Part shown: positions 6,718 to 24,372 of the stretch, in pieces
Layout of the letters: every line of letters starts with the position of its first letter
How positions within the stretch are numbered: the stretch's first letter is position 1
Assembly (NCBI GenBank): GCA_951406725.2
Contig: OX597815.1
Location: 114,452,001-114,516,000, forward strand
Origin: Octopus vulgaris
Lineage: Eukaryota
Direction: 5' to 3'
DNA: 64,000 bases
Notes under the pieces: generated by a model
Database searches by the model: none
Told to the model about the DNA's origin: nothing
What the model saw: only the letters and a program-made list of their open reading frames with translations
Translations under genes and position numbers: made by a program

Positions 6718-6861
6718 TATGATATATATATATATATAACAATTTAGGAGTGACCTTAACAGGCCATTCGTCCACCAGAAAGAGCAGCCATAACTCACAC
6801 CGCCAAGTAGTAGTAATTCAGAAATTAGGTGAAAATTTAAAAACATTTACCCTAATTCATC

Positions 6862-6959
6862 TTTTAGACGATGCATCGTTTCTGTGTCATTAATGATTAA
6901 ATTAGCTTAATTAAATTAAATTAAGCCAATCTACCATAGGTTACACTTCATCAGTAAAA
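6862..6959 (-). ncRNA. Type I hammerhead ribozyme motif with long stem II insertion
   Basis: Minus strand: uuuua CUGAUGA agugu...acaca GAAA cgaugcaucg UC uaaaa; palindromic stem III, GUC cleavage triplet; first stem II pair is an A-A mismatch. Confidence 0.7.
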
Positions 6960-7335
6960 AACCTGGGAGAGACAAATATACACGAGGCGTCTGTATCGAT
7001 GCCTCCGGAATATCTGTCTTAAAATTTTCAAGACTGACGTATTCGCGCCAAACTTATCAGCAGTAAATATAAACTGCCGATTCAATCTCAGAATTATTCA
7101 GAAAATTATCAATTAGTCAATTTAGGGTAGCAAAAAAATTCAATAGAAATTTATCGCTACCAGCGGCCTAGTGGAAAAGAGAAAATAGTCAACGACTAAA
7201 TATATAAATATAACAATTTAGGAGTGACCTTAACAGGCCATTCGTCCACCAGAAAGAGCAGCCATAACTCACACCGCCAAGTAGTAGTAATTCAGAAATT
7301 AGGTGAAAATTTAAAAACATTTACCCTAATTCATC

Positions 7336-7433
7336 TTTTAGACGATGCATCGTTTCTGTGTCATTAATGATTAAATTAGCTTAATTAAATTAAATTAAGC
7401 CAATCTACCATAGGTTACACTTCATCAGTAAAA
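7336..7433 (-). ncRNA. Type I hammerhead ribozyme motif (second unit)
   Basis: Same sequence as 6862-6959, 474 bp further along. Confidence 0.7.
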
Positions 7434-7607
7434 AACCTGGGAGAGACAAATATACACGAGGCGTCTGTATCGATGCCTCCGGAATATCTGTCTTAAAATT
7501 TTCAAGACTGACGTATTCGCGCCAAACTTATCAGCAGTAAATATAAACTGCCGATTCAATCTCAGAATTATTCAGAAAATTATCAATTAGTCAATTTAGT
7601 CAATTTC

Positions 7608-7678
<71 letters not shown>

Positions 7679-13465: not shown

Positions 13466-13742
13466 TTTACTAAGTAATGGAATGCAACACACACCGAATT
13501 TATATATGTATGTATATATAATCAATATAGGGTGGCAAAAAATTTCGTAGAATTTATTTGCCACCAGCGGCCTAGTGGGAAAAAAATTAAATAGTCATAG
13601 ACCATTTATAAGTTCAACATCACAATCAAGGAATGGCCATAATAGGCCATTCACCCACTAGAAATAACAGCCAAAGCTTCAACCGCAAAATAACATTAAT
13701 TCCGCAAACCAGGAGAAAATTAAAAAAACATTTACCCTGTAA

Positions 13743-13847
13743 TTTCTTATACGATGCACCGTTTCATCTATTGTTTAATGGTAAACTAACCTGATTAAAT
13801 TAAATCAAGCCAATCTTCCATAGGCCGATAGATTCGTCAGTAAGAAA
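13743..13847 (-). ncRNA. Type I hammerhead ribozyme
   Basis: Minus strand: uuucuua CUGACGA aucuau [long hairpin] auagau GAAA cggugcaucg UA uaagaaa; all core nucleotides canonical, GUA triplet. Confidence 0.85.
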
Positions 13848-14228
13848 CAGCCAGATCCGAGCAGATATTATCACGAGGCACCTTTATCCCTGCCTCGGCA
13901 ATATCTGACCTAAAATTTTCAAATCATCGCACTCGCGCCAAATTTATCGGCAGCAAATATAAGCCGCCGATTCCATTACGGAATTAACCAGAAAATTCAT
14001 AATTAATCAATATAGGGTGGCAAAAAATTTCGTAGAATTTATTTGCCACCAGCGGCCTAGTGGGAAAAAAATTAAATAGTCATAGACCATTTATAAGTTC
14101 AACATCACAATCAAGGAATGGCCATAATAGGCCATTCACCCACTAGAAATAACAGCCAAAGCTTCAACCGCAAAATAACATTAATTCCGCAAACCAGGAG
14201 AAAATTAAAAAAAACATTTACCCTGTAA

Positions 14229-14333
14229 TTTCTTATACGATGCACCGTTTCATCTATTGTTTAATGGTAAACTAACCTGATTAAATTAAATCAAGCCAAT
14301 CTTCCATAGGCCGATAGATTCGTCAGTAAGAAA
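14229..14333 (-). ncRNA. Type I hammerhead ribozyme (second unit)
   Basis: Same sequence as 13743-13847. Confidence 0.85.
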
Positions 14334-14710
14334 CAGCCAGATCCGAGCAGATATTATCACGAGGCACCTTTATCCCTGCCTCGGCAATATCTGACCTAAA
14401 ATTTTCAAATCATCGCACTCGCGCCAAATTTATCGGCAGCAAATATAAGCCGCCGATTCCATTACGGAATTAACCAGAAAATTCATAATTAATCAATATA
14501 GGGTGGCAAAAAATTTCGTAGAATTTATTTGCCACCAGCGGCCTAGTGGGAAAAAAATTAAATAGTCATAGACCATTTATAAGTTCAACATCACAATCAA
14601 GGAATGGCCATAATAGGCTATTCACCCACTAGAAATAACAGCCAAAGCTTCAACCGCAAAATAACATTAATTCCGCAAACCAGGAGAAAATTAAAAAAAC
14701 ATTTATCCTG

Positions 14711-14960
14711 TATCTGCTCGGATCTGGCTGTTTCTTACTGACGAATCTATCGGCCTATGGAAGATTGGCTTGATTTAATTTAATCAGGTTAGTTTACCAT
14801 TAAACAATAAATGAAACGGTGCATCGTATAAGAAATTACAGGGTAAATGTTTTTTTAATTTTCTCCTGGTTTGCGGAATTAATGTTATTTTGCGGTTGAA
14901 GCTTTGGCTGTTATTTCTAGTGGGTGAATGGCCTATTATGGCCATTCCTTGATTGTGATG
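14711..14960 (+). repeat. Inverted partial copy of the 486-bp unit
   Basis: Reverse complement of about 13616-13867. Confidence 0.9.
14731..14835 (+). ncRNA. Type I hammerhead ribozyme (inverted copy)
   Basis: tttctta ctgacga atctat...ataaat gaaa cggtgcatcg ta taagaaa; one stem II mismatch. Confidence 0.75.
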
Positions 14961-15204
14961 TATGTATATATAGATAATAGAAATATTAAAATTACTAAGT
15001 CTCTCTAAAAGAGATCACGGCAGCGTTCCTGGAAAATAATAGTTATCGCAATACTAATATGGCATTCTTATAAAAATAAGAATAAAGCTGTCCGCTTATT
15101 AGCTCCATGAGGCCATCGCCTTAAGTTAGCTATTTGATACACAAACTGTATCCATATAACCTTCGAACAAGGGAGGTCAGTCGCTCCACACTACTTGACC
15201 GACA

Positions 15205-15246
15205 GCTACAGACGCGTTTCGGGGTATTGCCCCTTTTCAATGTAGC
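15205..15246 (-). ncRNA. Minimal type I hammerhead ribozyme, U3:A8 core variant
   Basis: Minus strand: gcuaca UUGAAAA gggg caaua cccc GAAA cgcg UC uguagc; predicted cleavage between 15211 and 15210. Confidence 0.8.
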
Positions 15247-15256
15247 GTAGTCAGAC

Positions 15257-15273
15257 CAGTAGGTGTCGCTTCC
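15257..15273. other. 17-bp target-site duplication (left), cagtaggtgtcgcttcc
   Basis: Identical 17-mer at 20664-20680; present once per uninterrupted repeat unit. Confidence 0.92.
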
Positions 15274-15531
15274 AAAATCTTTATTATGATTATAAAAATC
15301 TTAGTACATTACAATACAAATGTACTAAGATAGTACATTACAATACAAAACATAATTACAAAAAGTTTACTTTGTTCGTTTGATATTTACATATGTTGAT
15401 TATTGATTATGATACTAGACTTTACTGTTCTCCTTTTTTTTTTAAAATTAAAAATGATTTTGGCCAGCTAGGTATATCACAGTCAGGATTCTTACCCGAC
15501 AGCCTAAGAGCCCAGAGACTATTTTCTCCCT

Positions 15532-18500
15532 TCATGATGACCAAGCAGGGTTACTCACACCCACCTTTTTTATCACATCCTTCCATCGATTCACATACTT
15601 TTTCTGTGTCAGGTTCCTCTTCTCTAAATCCATCTTGCTCTTTAGATGGTATCTGAAGTATTTTAACATACCATATCCAGATACAAAGGATCCTGACACC
15701 AAACCTTCCAATCTAGTTCTCCACACACACTCTTTCAGTACTGCCACCGTACAGTGAAAACAAGCCTCACCTTCCTTTGAGAGTCCAGCTGGCGGTATCA
15801 TCTTTATTATAGAACCAGCCGATAGCTGTACTCGTCCCAGATGCGACAACACGTGTTCTACGTAACTTATTAAGCCTGATAGCTCCTGACAATGTACAAA
15901 AGCGTGCTGGACGGTTTCATCGTCCAACCCACATCTTGGACATGTCGGTGGCACTGACATTCCATGCCTATATAACTTATCGCGAACAGGTAGAGCATTC
16001 CTATAGCACTGCCAAGTCAGGGATTTTTGGTAATTGTCCAAATACCCCGGCTTGAAAGTCTTCTTAAACAGGTCGGATAGTTGATCCTCATCGAACCCCA
16101 GAGCCTCTCTTAGGATGTCGTCATTTTTTGCCTCTACCATCCTTCTATAAAATGTCGAGGTGGTATTCCCGCAGCCGGCTTTGCCTATCTTGTGGATCAG
16201 CCAGAGTGCCTGTCGGCACTCTTTCTGCCATAAAGTCAGATTCCGTCTTTTAATGAAACCGGGTTTAAATCTCTCCATAGAGTCCGGTTGCGGGAAGAAA
16301 TTATCTGCCAGCGGACTCCACACCTTATCACCTTCCAGGTGAAACCAGAGATGTCTCAGTCTCAGCGCATGCCTGCGCATCATTAACCAAGGCATCCCCA
16401 GCCCACCCTTTAGTGGTTCCTGGCAACACACGGAGCGCCTTACAAGTGGCTTTCCTCCCTTCCACAAAAAGCGGAAAAGGAGTCGATCCAACTTGCTTAG
16501 CCACAAATCGGGGCAAGGCACGACAGTCAGGCGATAGGTGATTACAGATGCTATAAACACCTGTACCACCTCCGCCCTCCCTTTCAAGGAAAGATGCCTT
16601 CCGGACCACTCCCGAACTATGGCTTCTACCTTGGTCACTACCTCGCTCCAATTTTTCTCCGTCTGGGAGTCTGAACCAAACCAAACTCCAAGCAATTTAA
16701 CAGGACCATCTGTCCAGTGTCCAACAACACTGGACGATATCGGCTTGTTCCTCCAGGTGCCAAGGCGCAAACCAGTGGACTTGTCCTTGTTAACTTTTGC
16801 CCCAGCCACCGCTTCGTATCTTCGGAGAGCACCTTCTACACGAGTTAGTTGTGCTTCGTTGGACACGATGAAGGTGACGTCATCCGCATACGCAGAAACA
16901 GACTTACCGCATCCGATTTCATTAGGATTGCATCTCACCGTCTCCAACTCCCGCAGCAATGGCTCAAGAGCCAAAACGTACAGGAGAGGGGACAAGGGAC
17001 ATCCTTGACGAACTGAACGCTTAATCGAAAACGGTTCCGTTAAGTAACCGTTTATCTGGACTGTGGACTTGATACCGCTGTACATAGCTGATATCCACCC
17101 GCGAAAGTGAGGGCCTAGCCCAGCCGCTTCGAGAACCGTCGCCAGGTACTGATGATCTACCCTATCAAATGCTTTACTTTGGTCTAAATGGACCAATGCC
17201 CCTCCTTTGCCGGCTAATTGCCCAACCCTGTCTATAGTGTAGCGTAGAAGGTGAAGATTATCTTCGATCGACCTGCCTGGGATTGCACATGTCTGTGCCT
17301 TTCCAACAAGTTTTTCCATGACGACCTTCAACCTTTCTGCTAACACCTTGGCCAAAATCTTTAACTCTACATTAAGTAGAGTTATGGGCCTATAATTACT
17401 AATATTATCCCCCTTGCTCGGGTCTTTCTGGATCAGCGTCACAACTCCCCGGCTCACAGAACTGGGAATCCTCCCATTCTGTTGCCAGTTTGCGTAGACG
17501 CTTGCCAGTATGTCCCCGAACAAGTCCGGCATACAACAATAAAACTCATAGGGCAGACCATCCAGTCCCGGCGACTTTTCCCGGGCGCATTCAGCCAAAA
17601 CCCCTCTTACCTCCGCGGGAGTAATCGGTCCTTCACAGCGTTCCGCTCTGCGTGGCGAGAGCCGAGGCCCACCTGCTAGGAAGTTCTGTAAGTCCTCCCC
17701 TCGCTCGAGTGGATCGCCCTCCCCAAACAACCGAGCGAAATGCTGTTGAAAGACCTTCTGTATCTCCTCCTGTCCATAGATTTTGCGTCCCTGTTCGTCA
17801 GTTAAAGACTTAATAGAGGACTTTTTGCCCTTCTGACTCTCCACACGACGTGCCCATCCGGCAACATTAATACCTTTTCGTTTCACTGCACGTAGCTTAG
17901 CTCTGACTCTACACCCTTCATGCTTGGCATTGAGGTGACGGTACAAGATCGTTCTCTCTGCTAACACTCTAGATGCACAGCCAGATCCCATTGCCTCGTC
18001 TAAGTTCTTAACTAAATCGCCCTCTATTCTAGTCCTATCTAAACTTAGCTGGTTGCTAAATCCAATGGACTCCAAACGGATGGCTCTTTTGAGGGCGATC
18101 CACCATCTATTATTAATGATGGTTCCACATAATGCCCTCTGGACTAATTCCATAATCCGGTTACGGAAAGCTTCACAAGCCAAAATAGACTTGTTCATTT
18201 TCCAGTATCCGGGTCCCTGTCTATGGCATTTATCTACATGTACCTCACACGTCACTAATTTGTGATCCGTGTAAGGCACAATACAAAATTGTGGACAGCT
18301 AATGCTATTCCTATCTCGTTCTTTAACAAATACCCTATCTATATACGATCTGCGTGAGCCGTCGTTGTTACTCCACGTCCACTGTGGAATGCTCGGCTCA
18401 TCCATTCGAAACCGATCTACTAGATTAAGGCTCGTCAGTAGACCCTTGAGGCAAGGATTCCCCCTTCTATCAGACGAGCCCACACTATCTATCCGCGCAT

Positions 18501-18930
18501 CGATGATAGTGTTGAAATCCCCTACCAATACTACCGTTTTAGACGTCACTAGAAAGTGCTCCAAGTTCCGATAAAAACCAGTCTGCCTACCCTCATTAGG
18601 AGCATAAACAGCTACCAACCTGAAGGACTGCTTACTCACGTGAGTTACATCGAGGACAACCAGCCTACCTTCTGGGTCCATAAAGACAGTACTTACCTGT
18701 AAGTCCAAGTTCTTCCTGATAAGGACTGCCACGCCTGCACTTCCTCCTCGGCTAGGAGAAATAAATTTCTCGTAACCATTGAGAAGATGCGAGAACGCTT
18801 GGGTTCCTCTCATCTTGGACTCGGTGACAATGGCTACATCTATTCTGTGTGTCCTGAGGTCGTCCAGCAAGCAAGCCTGTTTCCATTTCGACCCCATTCC
18901 ACGCACATTTATACAGCCCAACTTAATCAT
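15532..18930 (-). CDS. ORF2p: APE endonuclease + reverse transcriptase + C-terminal CCHC (1132 aa)
   Basis: EN motifs INVRG, VYAP, GDFN, YIDRVF, TDHK; KSPGLDG, NYRPITLLN, LDQSKAFDRVDH, QGCPLSP, YADD; CPRC...ETVQHAFVHC. Confidence 0.97.
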   Translation of the reverse strand: MIKLGCINVRGMGSKWKQACLLDDLRTHRIDVAIVTESKMRGTQAFSHLLNGYEKFISPSRGGSAGVAVLIRKNLDLQVSTVFMDPEGRLVVLDVTHVSKQSFRLVAVYAPNEGRQTGFYRNLEHFLVTSKTVVLVGDFNTIIDARIDSVGSSDRRGNPCLKGLLTSLNLVDRFRMDEPSIPQWTWSNNDGSRRSYIDRVFVKERDRNSISCPQFCIVPYTDHKLVTCEVHVDKCHRQGPGYWKMNKSILACEAFRNRIMELVQRALCGTIINNRWWIALKRAIRLESIGFSNQLSLDRTRIEGDLVKNLDEAMGSGCASRVLAERTILYRHLNAKHEGCRVRAKLRAVKRKGINVAGWARRVESQKGKKSSIKSLTDEQGRKIYGQEEIQKVFQQHFARLFGEGDPLERGEDLQNFLAGGPRLSPRRAERCEGPITPAEVRGVLAECAREKSPGLDGLPYEFYCCMPDLFGDILASVYANWQQNGRIPSSVSRGVVTLIQKDPSKGDNISNYRPITLLNVELKILAKVLAERLKVVMEKLVGKAQTCAIPGRSIEDNLHLLRYTIDRVGQLAGKGGALVHLDQSKAFDRVDHQYLATVLEAAGLGPHFRGWISAMYSGIKSTVQINGYLTEPFSIKRSVRQGCPLSPLLYVLALEPLLRELETVRCNPNEIGCGKSVSAYADDVTFIVSNEAQLTRVEGALRRYEAVAGAKVNKDKSTGLRLGTWRNKPISSSVVGHWTDGPVKLLGVWFGSDSQTEKNWSEVVTKVEAIVREWSGRHLSLKGRAEVVQVFIASVITYRLTVVPCPDLWLSKLDRLLFRFLWKGGKPLVRRSVCCQEPLKGGLGMPWLMMRRHALRLRHLWFHLEGDKVWSPLADNFFPQPDSMERFKPGFIKRRNLTLWQKECRQALWLIHKIGKAGCGNTTSTFYRRMVEAKNDDILREALGFDEDQLSDLFKKTFKPGYLDNYQKSLTWQCYRNALPVRDKLYRHGMSVPPTCPRCGLDDETVQHAFVHCQELSGLISYVEHVLSHLGRVQLSAGSIIKMIPPAGLSKEGEACFHCTVAVLKECVWRTRLEGLVSGSFVSGYGMLKYFRYHLKSKMDLEKRNLTQKKYVNRWKDVIKKVGVSNPAWSS

Positions 18931-18954
18931 TGATGAATGAAGAAAGTTTGTTAC

Positions 18955-20445
18955 TTAAGGTTGTGAGAGGGAGCATGGCAGCTTTTGTCTGCCTACCTCC
19001 CCCACACTCCCCGTTGTTGCTGGGCATTTAACCGGCGTTGCCACCGGGCTCTGGGATGGAGTGGCTGCCGGGCTAATATTCAATTTTCCAGCTATCACCT
19101 CTTGTGTGACATCTTTAATCAGGTTGTCCCTCACGTGTAGTTGGAAGAGTCTCTCCTTCCATACCTCCTCTCCCACCTTCGCATACCTCCAATCCGGGTT
19201 TTTTTCCGATGATTTGAAACATTTTATGTTTGGTTTCGCCTTTATGTACCAAACTACTCTCTCGTTTGTTGTGTTATAAGCAATGCACCTATCGGTTTTT
19301 TTGAATCCTTTTAAAGTTGGGGGCTGGGGTTTAATGAAATGCTGGCCTACAAAAGTAGTGCCAGCGGGGTGGGATTGGATAATTTTTTTGTGTTGTTCTT
19401 CTGCGTTTGTTTTTCTTTTTGTTTGGGGTGGGGAGTCCGGGGTATTGGATTTCTTCCTTTTGTTGGTTACAGTCGTATATTCCATTACTTCCAGTTCTTT
19501 TCCATTTGATAAATTATTTTCCCCCTCGTTTTCGTTTTCGTTTTGTTTTCCATTCATTTTCTTTTCCTCCTTTTGACTTTCATTTTGCTTTTTCCGGGTA
19601 TTCTCTTTTGTTGTTGCTGTGATGTCTGCTTTGTTCTCCACAGCGGTTTGAATGGGGGCATTAACGGGTTTTTTCTTTTTGCACTCTGAGCGGACGTGAC
19701 CCTTCTGCCCACATTTGAAACATCTGGGCCTACGTCCCTCCACCGATACCCGCATAGTGTGTCCATCCCCCACGAAGACCCTGTCTGGCAAACTCTCCAG
19801 CGTTGCATTGTCAGCTTGAACGATCATTTCAAGCTGCTGATCTTTCCAAAATTTTGCCTCTTTCATCCTCATGTTTAAAATGTTTAATTTCTCTTCTACG
19901 TCGAATACGACCGCTGTTGCTGCCCACATTACATCGTAACCTGTTGGTATATCCTCTATTGTTACCTTAGCTGTTCTGCGCCCTAAGTACGTGGGCAGCA
20001 ACAGGATGTCTGCACTCTTCAACGTTTGAGTTGAAATTTCCTTCGCTATGCTAGCCGACTCGAAATGCGCTTCAATAGTAGCGCTTCTCACTCCTCGGCC
20101 AACATAGCGAACCTTGTTCCAAATTGGTGCCATGCACCGTTCTACCAATTCATTTTTTACATCTGCAATCTTTTTTTCCTTAATATTATATACCTTATAA
20201 ATTACCGTCTTCTCACGGATTGCTTGTAAGGTGTCAGGGGGCGGTATTATTCTCGTTTCTTCTCCATTCTTTTGTATGAACTTTCTGAACTTGAAGAGAT
20301 CCCCCATTGCTACTTCCAGTTCTATAACATTGCCTCCAACGGCTTCCGAAAAACTTTGTTTCTCCTTTATATCCATTTGATTTCCATTTTTTATAACTTC
20401 TCCCATCTCGGGAAAATCAGAATTTGACGTTAAGTCAAGATCCAT
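18955..20445 (-). CDS. ORF1p: gag-like nucleic-acid-binding protein with zinc knuckle (496 aa from first ATG)
   Basis: CFKCGQKGHVRSEC knuckle preceded by an RRM-like region; 24 bp upstream of ORF2; open frame extends to a GTG at 20496, first ATG at 20445. Confidence 0.9.
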   Translation of the reverse strand: MDLDLTSNSDFPEMGEVIKNGNQMDIKEKQSFSEAVGGNVIELEVAMGDLFKFRKFIQKNGEETRIIPPPDTLQAIREKTVIYKVYNIKEKKIADVKNELVERCMAPIWNKVRYVGRGVRSATIEAHFESASIAKEISTQTLKSADILLLPTYLGRRTAKVTIEDIPTGYDVMWAATAVVFDVEEKLNILNMRMKEAKFWKDQQLEMIVQADNATLESLPDRVFVGDGHTMRVSVEGRRPRCFKCGQKGHVRSECKKKKPVNAPIQTAVENKADITATTKENTRKKQNESQKEEKKMNGKQNENENEGENNLSNGKELEVMEYTTVTNKRKKSNTPDSPPQTKRKTNAEEQHKKIIQSHPAGTTFVGQHFIKPQPPTLKGFKKTDRCIAYNTTNERVVWYIKAKPNIKCFKSSEKNPDWRYAKVGEEVWKERLFQLHVRDNLIKDVTQEVIAGKLNISPAATPSQSPVATPVKCPATTGSVGEVGRQKLPCSLSQP

Positions 20446-20663
20446 ATTAAAATGCAAGTGACTTGTCACAAGAGACAAGATAAAGGTTAATTCCACACTG
20501 AGTTAATAGCACATATATAAAAAGAAATTTTCTACCCCGAAGGGCGAAAATTACTTTGTTCCACGAGTTAATACTCCAAAAATTGTACGTGTAAATCCAG
20601 AACAGAACGAACTAACATAACAGCTTACAGCGTAAAATAATCCGACGTAATCCAAGGAAAAAT

Positions 20664-20680
20664 CAGTAGGTGTCGCTTCC
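20664..20680. other. 17-bp target-site duplication (right)
   Basis: Identical to 15257-15273. Confidence 0.92.
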
Positions 20681-20973
20681 GACAATCTCTGTTCGAAGGT
20701 TTTATTTACCTAGTTTCGGTGGAATACATCCACTTGTTTTCAATAATAGAAATATTAAAATTACTAAGTCTCTCTAAAAGAGATCACGGCAGCGTTCCTG
20801 GAAAATAATAGTTATCGCCATACTAATATGGCATTCTTATAAAAATAAGAATAAAGCTGTCCGCTTATTAACTCCATGAGGCCATCGCCTTAAGTTAGCT
20901 ATTTGATACACAAACTGTATCCATATAACCTTCGAACAAGGGAGGTCAGTCGCTCCACACTACTTGACCGACA

Positions 20974-21015
20974 GCTACAGACGCGTTTCGGGGTATTGCC
21001 CCTTTTCAATGTAGC
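20974..21015 (-). ncRNA. Minimal type I hammerhead ribozyme, U3:A8 variant (upstream of the LINE)
   Basis: Identical to 15205-15246. Confidence 0.8.
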
Positions 21016-21046
21016 GTAGTCAGACCAATAGGTGTCGCTTCCGACA

Positions 21047-22038
<992 letters not shown>

Positions 22039-24276: not shown

Positions 24277-24282
<6 letters not shown>

Positions 24283-24372
24283 TCAATATAGGGTGGCAAA
24301 AAAATTTTGTAGAATTTTTTTTGCCACCAGCGGCCTAGTGGGAAAAAAATTAAATAGTCATAGACCATTTAT
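24277..24372 (-). repeat. Short fragment of the 486-bp retrozyme-like unit
   Basis: aatcaatatagggtggc...gccaccagcggcctagtggg...gaccatttat, matching 13520-13609; within (TA)n. Confidence 0.9.

What the first reader, a model, noticed from the sequence alone, without database searches (positions are those of the whole stretch)
6737..7599. 474-bp sister family shows compensatory changes across the whole unit: a large conserved structured RNA
Seen by comparing with the 486-bp unit (minus strand): ggcuuAauu/aauuAagcu versus ggcuuGauu/aauCagguu; gguAgc/gcUacc versus gguGgc/gcCacc; aucggcagU-uuauauuu-Acugcugau versus aucggcggC-uuauauuu-Gcugccgau; gaggc hairpin retained; HHR stem II sequence replaced. 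Mismatches resolve as G-U pairs mainly on the minus strand, the same strand as the HHR. Inference: structure is under selection well beyond the ribozyme, suggesting an undescribed viroid-like or retrozyme RNA class with several functional domains.
Basis: partly seen in the sequence, partly recalled or inferred. Interest (0 to 1): 0.75.

Follow-up and report, generated by a model that had tools for sequence, protein, structure and literature searches.

The report
Retrozyme with conserved structured RNA domain
This is one young copy of a non-coding jumping repeat that carries a predicted self-cutting RNA motif (a known kind, 'retrozymes'); comparing its relatives shows that a folded stretch of about 240 bases outside that motif has been kept by selection, and this stretch likely is the handle that a Penelope-type copying enzyme grips to start copying.

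Summary
The quoted stem comparisons are real. The element (6734-7599, minus strand, 1.8 units of 474 bp) is a non-LTR retrozyme, i.e. a non-autonomous Penelope-like element, not a new viroid-like class. Each unit holds a type I hammerhead with a palindromic stem III and a branched stem II of about 65 nt. Copies sit in (TA)n and end at two fixed sites; 55 of 94 insertions have one end of each kind and none has two of the same kind, the Penelope 'tail' footprint. On a tree of 142 copies, pairs predicted from families A+B were tested on older lineages. In the domain from the cut to the second end site, inherited changes keep pairs 22:9, against 24:66 on terminal (single-copy) branches, and G-U outnumbers A-C 19:2. 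The middle of the unit shows no such signal as a whole, so 'across the whole unit' is too wide. A structure-blind covariation test found nothing significant but also missed the hammerhead stems. Expression, cleavage, circles and the partner enzyme are not shown. The scan already noted such octopus retrozymes with Penelope footprints on other DNA; the mapped domain is what this adds.

The parts
6734..7599 (-). Family A insertion: 1.8 tandem units of 474 bp; one arm, 5'-truncated at monomer nt 216, ending at end site 1 (tail-less)
6722..6738 (.). (TA)n target at the 3' end (site 1); the junction blends into the repeat
   Evidence: sequence
7600..7678 (.). 11 extra bases at the 5' junction, then (TA)34
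6867..7340 (-). Complete cut-to-cut monomer (474 nt); predicted RNA unit, longest ATG-started frame 43 codons
7334..7435 (-). Type I hammerhead, first copy: stem I, CUGAUGA core (7428-7422), long stem II, GAAAC, palindromic stem III, GUC; predicted cut between 7341 and 7340; A.A opposition at 10.1/11.1
   Evidence: Rfam finds nothing at gathering score
6860..6961 (-). Type I hammerhead, second copy; predicted cut between 6867 and 6866
7374..7405 (-).
7089..7295 (-). Conserved structured domain downstream of the cut: closing helix 7288-7295/7089-7096, P1 7274-7278/7162-7166, P3 7245-7252/7168-7175, P4 7222-7243, P5 7186-7198, tail hairpin P6 7126-7161; holds end site 1 (about 7210) and end site 2 (about 7112)
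7056..7081 (-). aucggcag/cugcugau hairpin (also at 7530-7555); kept through G-U steps (10:1 inherited vs 13:16 single-copy on all branches; not significant on older lineages alone)
6984..7005 (-). gaggc/gccuc stem (also at 7458-7479); conserved sequence, no structural signal
13519..14961 (.). Sister family B insertion: 2.5 units of 486 bp on the minus strand ending at site 2, plus an inverted arm ending at site 1

Best explanation
This is a young copy of a non-coding, hammerhead-bearing repeat whose insertions carry the Penelope-type footprint and whose RNA fold downstream of the predicted cut site is under selection; that fold likely serves as the binding and start platform for a borrowed Penelope-type reverse transcriptase. 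Steps. (1, shown) The family has hundreds to thousands of dispersed units in (TA)n, as tandem and inverted arms ending at two fixed sites about 130 and 230 nt after the cut. (2, shown statistically) Changes inherited by subfamilies keep base pairs in the cut-to-tail domain, on the hammerhead strand. (3, inferred) Arrays are transcribed on that strand, probably by Pol II read-through; no promoter was found. (4, inferred) Hammerheads cut as dimers through the palindromic stem III, and units may be ligated to circles. (5, inferred by analogy to the anole element PAc) A Neptune/Naiad-type RT-endonuclease binds the domain, nicks both strands of (TA)n and starts cDNA at the two sites. It runs through several units, and the 5' ends are joined head to head. 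Only copies whose domain folds are copied again, which explains why pairing is kept on lineage branches and not on single-copy branches.
For: Genome counts of hammerhead patterns: 2,260 long-stem-II matches vs 1 control, 544 older-family matches vs 0, 316 family-A matches vs 0. 3' ends: A 26 + 27 of 56 at the two sites, B 49 + 40 of 100. 55 of 94 insertions have site 1 + site 2, 0 of 94 have the same site twice, and 72 of 94 have TA on both flanks. This matches the tandem/inverted/tail anatomy in PMC8557442 and the two internal RT start sites downstream of the hammerhead in PMC11167929, where the minimal RNA spans +20 to +172 of the ORF and the cut is at +26. Held-out structure test on 142 copies, 51 domain pairs: kept:broken 22:9 inherited vs 24:66 single-copy (p 2e-5; 22:4, p 2e-7 with another root); G-U:A-C 19:2 vs 23:25; 3 double changes vs null 0.09. 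A model of the domain finds the older family E and others, in which P3 and the tail helix differ in sequence and still pair (4 motif-anchored E copies pair 8, 8, 8 and 7 of 8). Stem III stays palindromic through a double change inside family A. Autonomous elements with RT and GIY-YIG exist in the genome and also end in (TA)n at two sites.
Against: The structure-blind G-test gives 0 of 109,746 column pairs at E<0.05, and its top pair is not a base pair; hammerhead control pairs also fail, effective size 22. In the tool's count on 34 copies the two measures least open to relatedness are not significant (pairs changed on both sides 10 vs 7.1, 29/500; pair types 36 vs 34.4, 124/500). Double changes are few (4 outside the hammerhead in the strict held-out set). 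In that run the kept fraction over all 86 outside pairs equals its null (0.60 vs 0.57), and for the domain it is only 0.71 vs 0.61 (p 0.027). No autonomous element sharing the domain was found among 42 GIY-YIG loci. The tail is about 100 nt, against 30-40 nt in described elements. 15 of 17 family A copies have A.A at hammerhead 10.1/11.1, so cleavage may be weak. In PAc, cleavage was not needed for insertion in vitro, and 8 of 9 Xenopus retrozyme dimers did not cleave in the 2026 preprint.
Confidence: 0.68

Rival explanations
1. Same element, but the domain is kept for RNA handling (closing the circle, stability, export or escape from decay), not for RT binding; the two end sites are set by nearby AU-rich microhomology to (TA)n.
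For: Retrozyme circles are described as highly self-paired (PMC7229834). Both end sites lie in AU-rich stretches that blend into (TA)n. No partner element shares the domain.
Against: Selection concentrates on the stretch that holds both end sites and is absent from the middle as a whole. Families E and F keep the same two sites relative to the helices despite diverged sequence. The unit has many other AU-rich stretches that are not used.
Confidence: 0.2
2. The apparent conservation is inherited inverted-repeat sequence plus phylogeny; there is no selection on structure outside the hammerhead.
For: No pair is significant in the structure-blind test. The middle region behaves like its null. Two of four measures are not significant.
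Against: Pairs were set on A+B and tested on other lineages. Single-copy branches of the same tree break the same pairs at the null rate. G-U exceeds A-C only on inherited branches and only on the hammerhead strand. P3 is rewritten in family E and still pairs.
Confidence: 0.07
3. An independent viroid-like RNA replicon with several functional domains, whose genomic copies are incidental.
For: Size (474 nt), non-coding, strongly folded; RNA-RNA replication is left open for mussel retrozymes in PMC7229834.
Against: No antisense hammerhead core in A or B, and in 1 of 142 copies overall. A ladder-shaped tree of genomic subfamilies and a Penelope insertion footprint. Branched, not rod-like, fold.
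Confidence: 0.04

Closest known systems
Metazoan non-LTR retrozymes (coral, mussel 350-390 bp, axolotl; PMC7229834; vertebrate survey bioRxiv 10.64898/2026.07.22.740005)
   Same: Non-coding, AT-rich tandem units, each with one type I hammerhead; dispersed dimers to multimers; coexist with Penelope-like elements; predicted strong self-pairing.
   Different: Unit of 474-490 nt (170-400 nt in PMC7229834; 51-972 in the preprint); stem II of 40-75 nt with an inner hairpin; A.A at 10.1/11.1 in family A. Structure outside the ribozyme is tested here by evolution, whereas the passages read give only folding predictions. Circles and cleavage are shown there, not here.
Penelope-like elements with endonuclease (Neptune, Naiad, Poseidon PAc; PMC8557442, PMC11167929, PMC4209133)
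   Same: Tandem plus inverted 5'-truncated arms, a tail on one end only, (TA)n targets, palindromic stem III, and end sites downstream of the hammerhead.
   Different: No ORF; tail about 100 nt instead of 30-40 nt; no sequence link to the pLTR of any autonomous family examined.
Non-autonomous Chlamys elements such as MRC1 (PMC8557442)
   Same: Non-coding Penelope-dependent elements with head-to-tail copies.
   Different: Those generally share 3' sequence with their autonomous partners, and most Chlamys lack hammerheads.
Hammerhead viroids and viroid-like RNAs (Avsunviroidae; recalled, and abstract listing)
   Same: Small, non-coding, hammerhead, possibly circular.
   Different: Those have ribozymes in both polarities and no DNA phase; here one polarity only and thousands of genomic units.

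Membership tests
non-LTR retrozyme | Type I hammerhead in each tandem unit | tested here: met
   Core and three stems in both window units; hammerhead fold within 1.6 kcal/mol of the minimum; stems covary. Activity untested.
non-LTR retrozyme | Small non-coding unit without LTR features | tested here: met
   Longest ATG-started frame 43 codons on the circular unit; 474 bp period.
non-LTR retrozyme | Dispersed monomers to multimers in the genome | tested here: met
non-LTR retrozyme | Self-cleavage and abundant circular RNA | not testable with these tools
   Needs transcription assays, northern blots or raw stranded reads.
Penelope-like element (non-autonomous) | Tandem and inverted 5'-truncated arms with a tail at one end only | tested here: met
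   55 of 94 insertions site 1 + site 2, 0 of 94 the same site twice.
Penelope-like element (non-autonomous) | Insertion into AT-rich or (TA)n targets | tested here: met
   72 of 94 with TA on both flanks, 19 on one.
Penelope-like element (non-autonomous) | Sequence shared with the pLTR of an autonomous partner | tested here: inconclusive
   None among 42 GIY-YIG loci from the 150 best of 6,136 candidates; most families were not examined.
Penelope-like element (autonomous) | RT plus GIY-YIG ORF | tested here: not met
   No ORF in the unit. Penelope-type protein matches lay in the flanks of 10 loci searched; the one read in full (L064) is separated from the unit by (TA)n.
hammerhead viroid / viroid-like replicon | Ribozymes in both polarities | tested here: not met
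conserved structured RNA by R-scape standard | Individually significant covarying pairs | tested here: inconclusive
   0 pairs at E<0.05 in a home-made equivalent that also misses hammerhead pairs; set-level held-out tests are positive for the cut-to-tail domain.

The most novel reading that the evidence does not exclude
A roughly 240-nt multi-helix RNA domain, conserved in fold across several old and young repeat families, is the cis-element by which a telomerase-related Penelope reverse transcriptase selects its template and sets two start sites on an RNA circle: a natural, covariation-mapped counterpart of the telomerase RNA scaffold.
Probability: 0.3. Interest if true: 0.72.

Novelty: new variant of a known kind. 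Interest (0 to 1): 0.45.

Why it matters
How Penelope-type reverse transcriptases choose their RNA and start inside it is open; one element has been studied in vitro. A non-coding parasite has no protein-coding constraint, so its conserved helices point straight at what the enzyme or the RNA cycle needs. The map given here (six helices, two start sites) can be tested by mutation and rescue. It also turns 'retrozymes are highly self-paired' from a folding prediction into an evolutionary result for one part of the unit. The class itself is known, which limits the surprise.

Tried and rejected
Rfam at gathering score: 0 matches in the window. Structure-blind covariation: nothing significant, underpowered. 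Expression: no RNA holder listed on record; four runs laid were contigs only and cannot show strand, ends or circles, so they count neither way. RNA editing as the source of G-U pairs: within arrays A>G 6 vs T>C 6, rejected. Endless reading frame (474 and 486 are multiples of 3): all frames closed. Full-length copying of a cut linear RNA: 5' ends are not enriched at the cut (A 4 of 59, three of them in diverged subfamily copies; B 0 of 107); this fits a circle or an uncut multimer but does not separate them. Periodic variants in arrays as proof of rolling-circle copying: seen in 3 of 30 arrays, all one-armed, so later duplication or assembly error is as good. Partner search: short-stem-II hammerhead loci gave no ORF; the 781-aa Neptune-like family shares no domain. 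One row (L353) ran into flank and was dropped before pair counting. One hand-set tail register was off by one and was corrected. A genome-wide search with the RNA model was not run, so the total spread of the domain is open. PMC5785218 was not held.

Full report
Observation. The window holds a perfect tandem of period 474 at 6734-7599 (392 of 392 positions) between (TA)n runs, and a sister of period 486 at 13519-14712 followed by an inverted piece. The two are 73-78% identical by aligner. On the minus strand each unit has a type I hammerhead: stem I, CUGAUGA, a stem II of about 65 nt with an inner hairpin, GAAAC, a palindromic stem III and GUC; the predicted cuts are at 7341/7340 and 6867/6866. 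Rfam does not score it. The monomer folds at -133 kcal/mol (z -5.6) on this strand and -96 (z -4.2) on the other. It codes for nothing. That the host is an octopus rests on the scan's earlier notes and on a SINE that I recall; I did not test it.

What it is. Patterns for the long-stem-II hammerhead give 2,260 matches in the genome against 1 for the reversed pattern; older relatives give 544 against 0 and family A alone 316 against 0. Loci were sampled as best hits and as the first places listed, mostly on contigs C1-C3, not at random. Copies end at two fixed places, about 130 and 230 nt after the cut: A 26 and 27 of 56 ends, B 49 and 40 of 100. Of 94 insertions 55 have one end of each kind, none has the same kind twice, and 72 have (TA)n on both sides. 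The window copy is one-armed and tail-less. This is the anatomy given for Penelope-like elements in PMC8557442 (passages read). It is explained in PMC11167929 (parts 1-2 of 4 read) by two internal RT start sites downstream of the hammerhead. Non-coding tandem units with type I hammerheads are the non-LTR retrozymes of PMC7229834 (passages and section 14). The preprint 10.64898/2026.07.22.740005 (parts 1-3 of 5) argues that they are non-autonomous Penelope derivatives; it sampled no mollusc. Autonomous elements with RT and GIY-YIG are present, including a 781-aa family with many open copies, its own compact hammerhead and its own two (TA)n ends. None of the 42 loci examined shares sequence or the domain with this unit.

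The covariation claim. I aligned 142 copies by sequence only (17 A, 44 B, 81 older; from 170 loci after removing near-identical ones; median identity 70%). The tree is a ladder of subfamilies. A structure-blind G-test with tree-based nulls found no pair at E<0.05 among 109,746, but hammerhead stem pairs ranked 2nd and 4th and also failed, so it lacks power. Folds computed separately for A+B and for the older families share 61 pairs on the hammerhead strand and 8 on the other. I then fixed pairs on A+B and counted changes on the other lineages, using terminal branches (mostly decay after insertion) as an inner control. Outside the hammerhead core stems, double compensatory changes were 6 against a null of 1.0 +- 0.9 on inherited branches and 2 against 2.0 on terminal ones. 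With the stem II extension also removed and three copies required per side they were 4 against about 0; the kept fraction over all 86 pairs was not above null. Splitting by region resolves this. For 51 pairs from the cut to the tail end, kept:broken is 22:9 inherited and 24:66 terminal (p 2e-5; 22:4 under another root) and G-U:A-C is 19:2 against 23:25. For 32 pairs in the middle it is 10:14 against 32:57 and 9:7 against 32:25. The reverse test (older fold on A+B branches) is weak: 0.74 kept vs 0.66, p 0.025, one double change. The per-helix table (helices chosen after seeing both folds, so not held out) shows the contrast for the closing helix, P1, P3, P4, the tail helix and the aucggcag hairpin, and not for the gaggc stem, P5 or the stem II extension. 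The pair-counting tool on 34 copies gives 95% paired and a covariation score above all 500 shuffles, but its two stricter measures are not significant (29/500, 124/500). A covariance model of the domain, built from A, B and older copies, finds the more distant family E (up to 54 bits) and further relatives. There P3 and the tail helix are rewritten and still pair; four E copies picked by flanking motifs alone pair 8, 8, 8 and 7 of 8 in P3. Two of the 22 snRNA loci added as background also scored at E<0.01 and proved to hold relatives of the repeat. So selection on structure beyond the ribozyme is real, modest in depth, mostly by G-U steps, and concentrated on one domain.

How it likely works. 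The G-U bias is on the hammerhead strand, which points to RNA, not to the antisense cDNA. The selected domain begins just after the cut and contains both end sites. In PAc the RNA needed for insertion runs from about the cut to just past the start sites. By analogy, the domain is likely the RT binding and initiation platform (inferred). The enzyme would nick both strands of (TA)n, start at the two sites and run through several units; arms of 10 or more units occur, and 5' ends are not enriched at the cut. That fits a circle or an uncut multimer; neither is shown. The hammerhead of family A has A.A where older copies have G10.1-C11.1 (15 of 17 copies; the same change arose in an older lineage), although PMC4209133 (passages) calls that pair highly conserved. 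Its palindromic stem III is still kept by a double change within A, which suggests dimer cleavage remains selected. No promoter was found; T runs of up to 7 argue against Pol III (established knowledge).

Novelty. Ten literature searches showed no paper on cephalopod retrozymes and none testing retrozyme structure outside the ribozyme by covariation; most subscription papers are not held. I did not read the supplements of PMC7229834 or PMC4209133, and those of the preprint are closed; they may list cephalopod repeats or long stem II variants. PMC8490949 (passages) added nothing specific. Verdict: a new variant of a known kind, with a testable domain map; interest 0.45.

Noticed in passing
window 14966-21390: A second, unrelated hammerhead repeat (core variant UUGAAAA, tandem and inverted) sits at the tail-less end of the B array and carries an inserted L1/Tx1-like element; already noted by the scan.
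   Followed up: no
window 24277-24372: Short family B fragment in (TA)n made of the tail (site 2) joined to a few bases of site 1: a minimal two-ended insertion.
   Followed up: partly
L157-L168 (e.g. L158:1464-3809): Young Neptune-like element with many open 781-aa frames, a pLTR with CCAAT, TGACGTCA and TATA-like boxes (labels recalled), a compact hammerhead variant and two 3' ends about 37 nt apart in (TA)n.
   Followed up: partly
L135:200-560, L162 and L130/L175: Other hammerhead repeats with long branched stem II; long stem II seems common among this genome's non-coding hammerhead repeats.
   Followed up: partly
L199-L223, L163:830-1002, L380:400-574, L361:127-296: Older families that share the cut-to-tail domain with rewritten helices; family E also keeps both end sites.
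   Followed up: yes
L334, L335, L337: One-armed arrays whose unit variants repeat with period 4, 3 and 2; multimeric circles, later duplication or assembly error are all possible.
   Followed up: partly
L343: A family A insertion with at least 11 + 10 units in two inverted arms, longer than 10 kb.
   Followed up: no
window 7320-7326 and 6846-6852 (minus): A nearly invariant GGGTAAA motif just after the cut has no stable partner in the consensus fold; a similar word lies just upstream of some U2 and U6 starts, probably by chance.
   Followed up: partly
L242, L243, L245, L251, L257 and family A: G-C to A.A at hammerhead 10.1/11.1 arose twice as a double change.
   Followed up: partly
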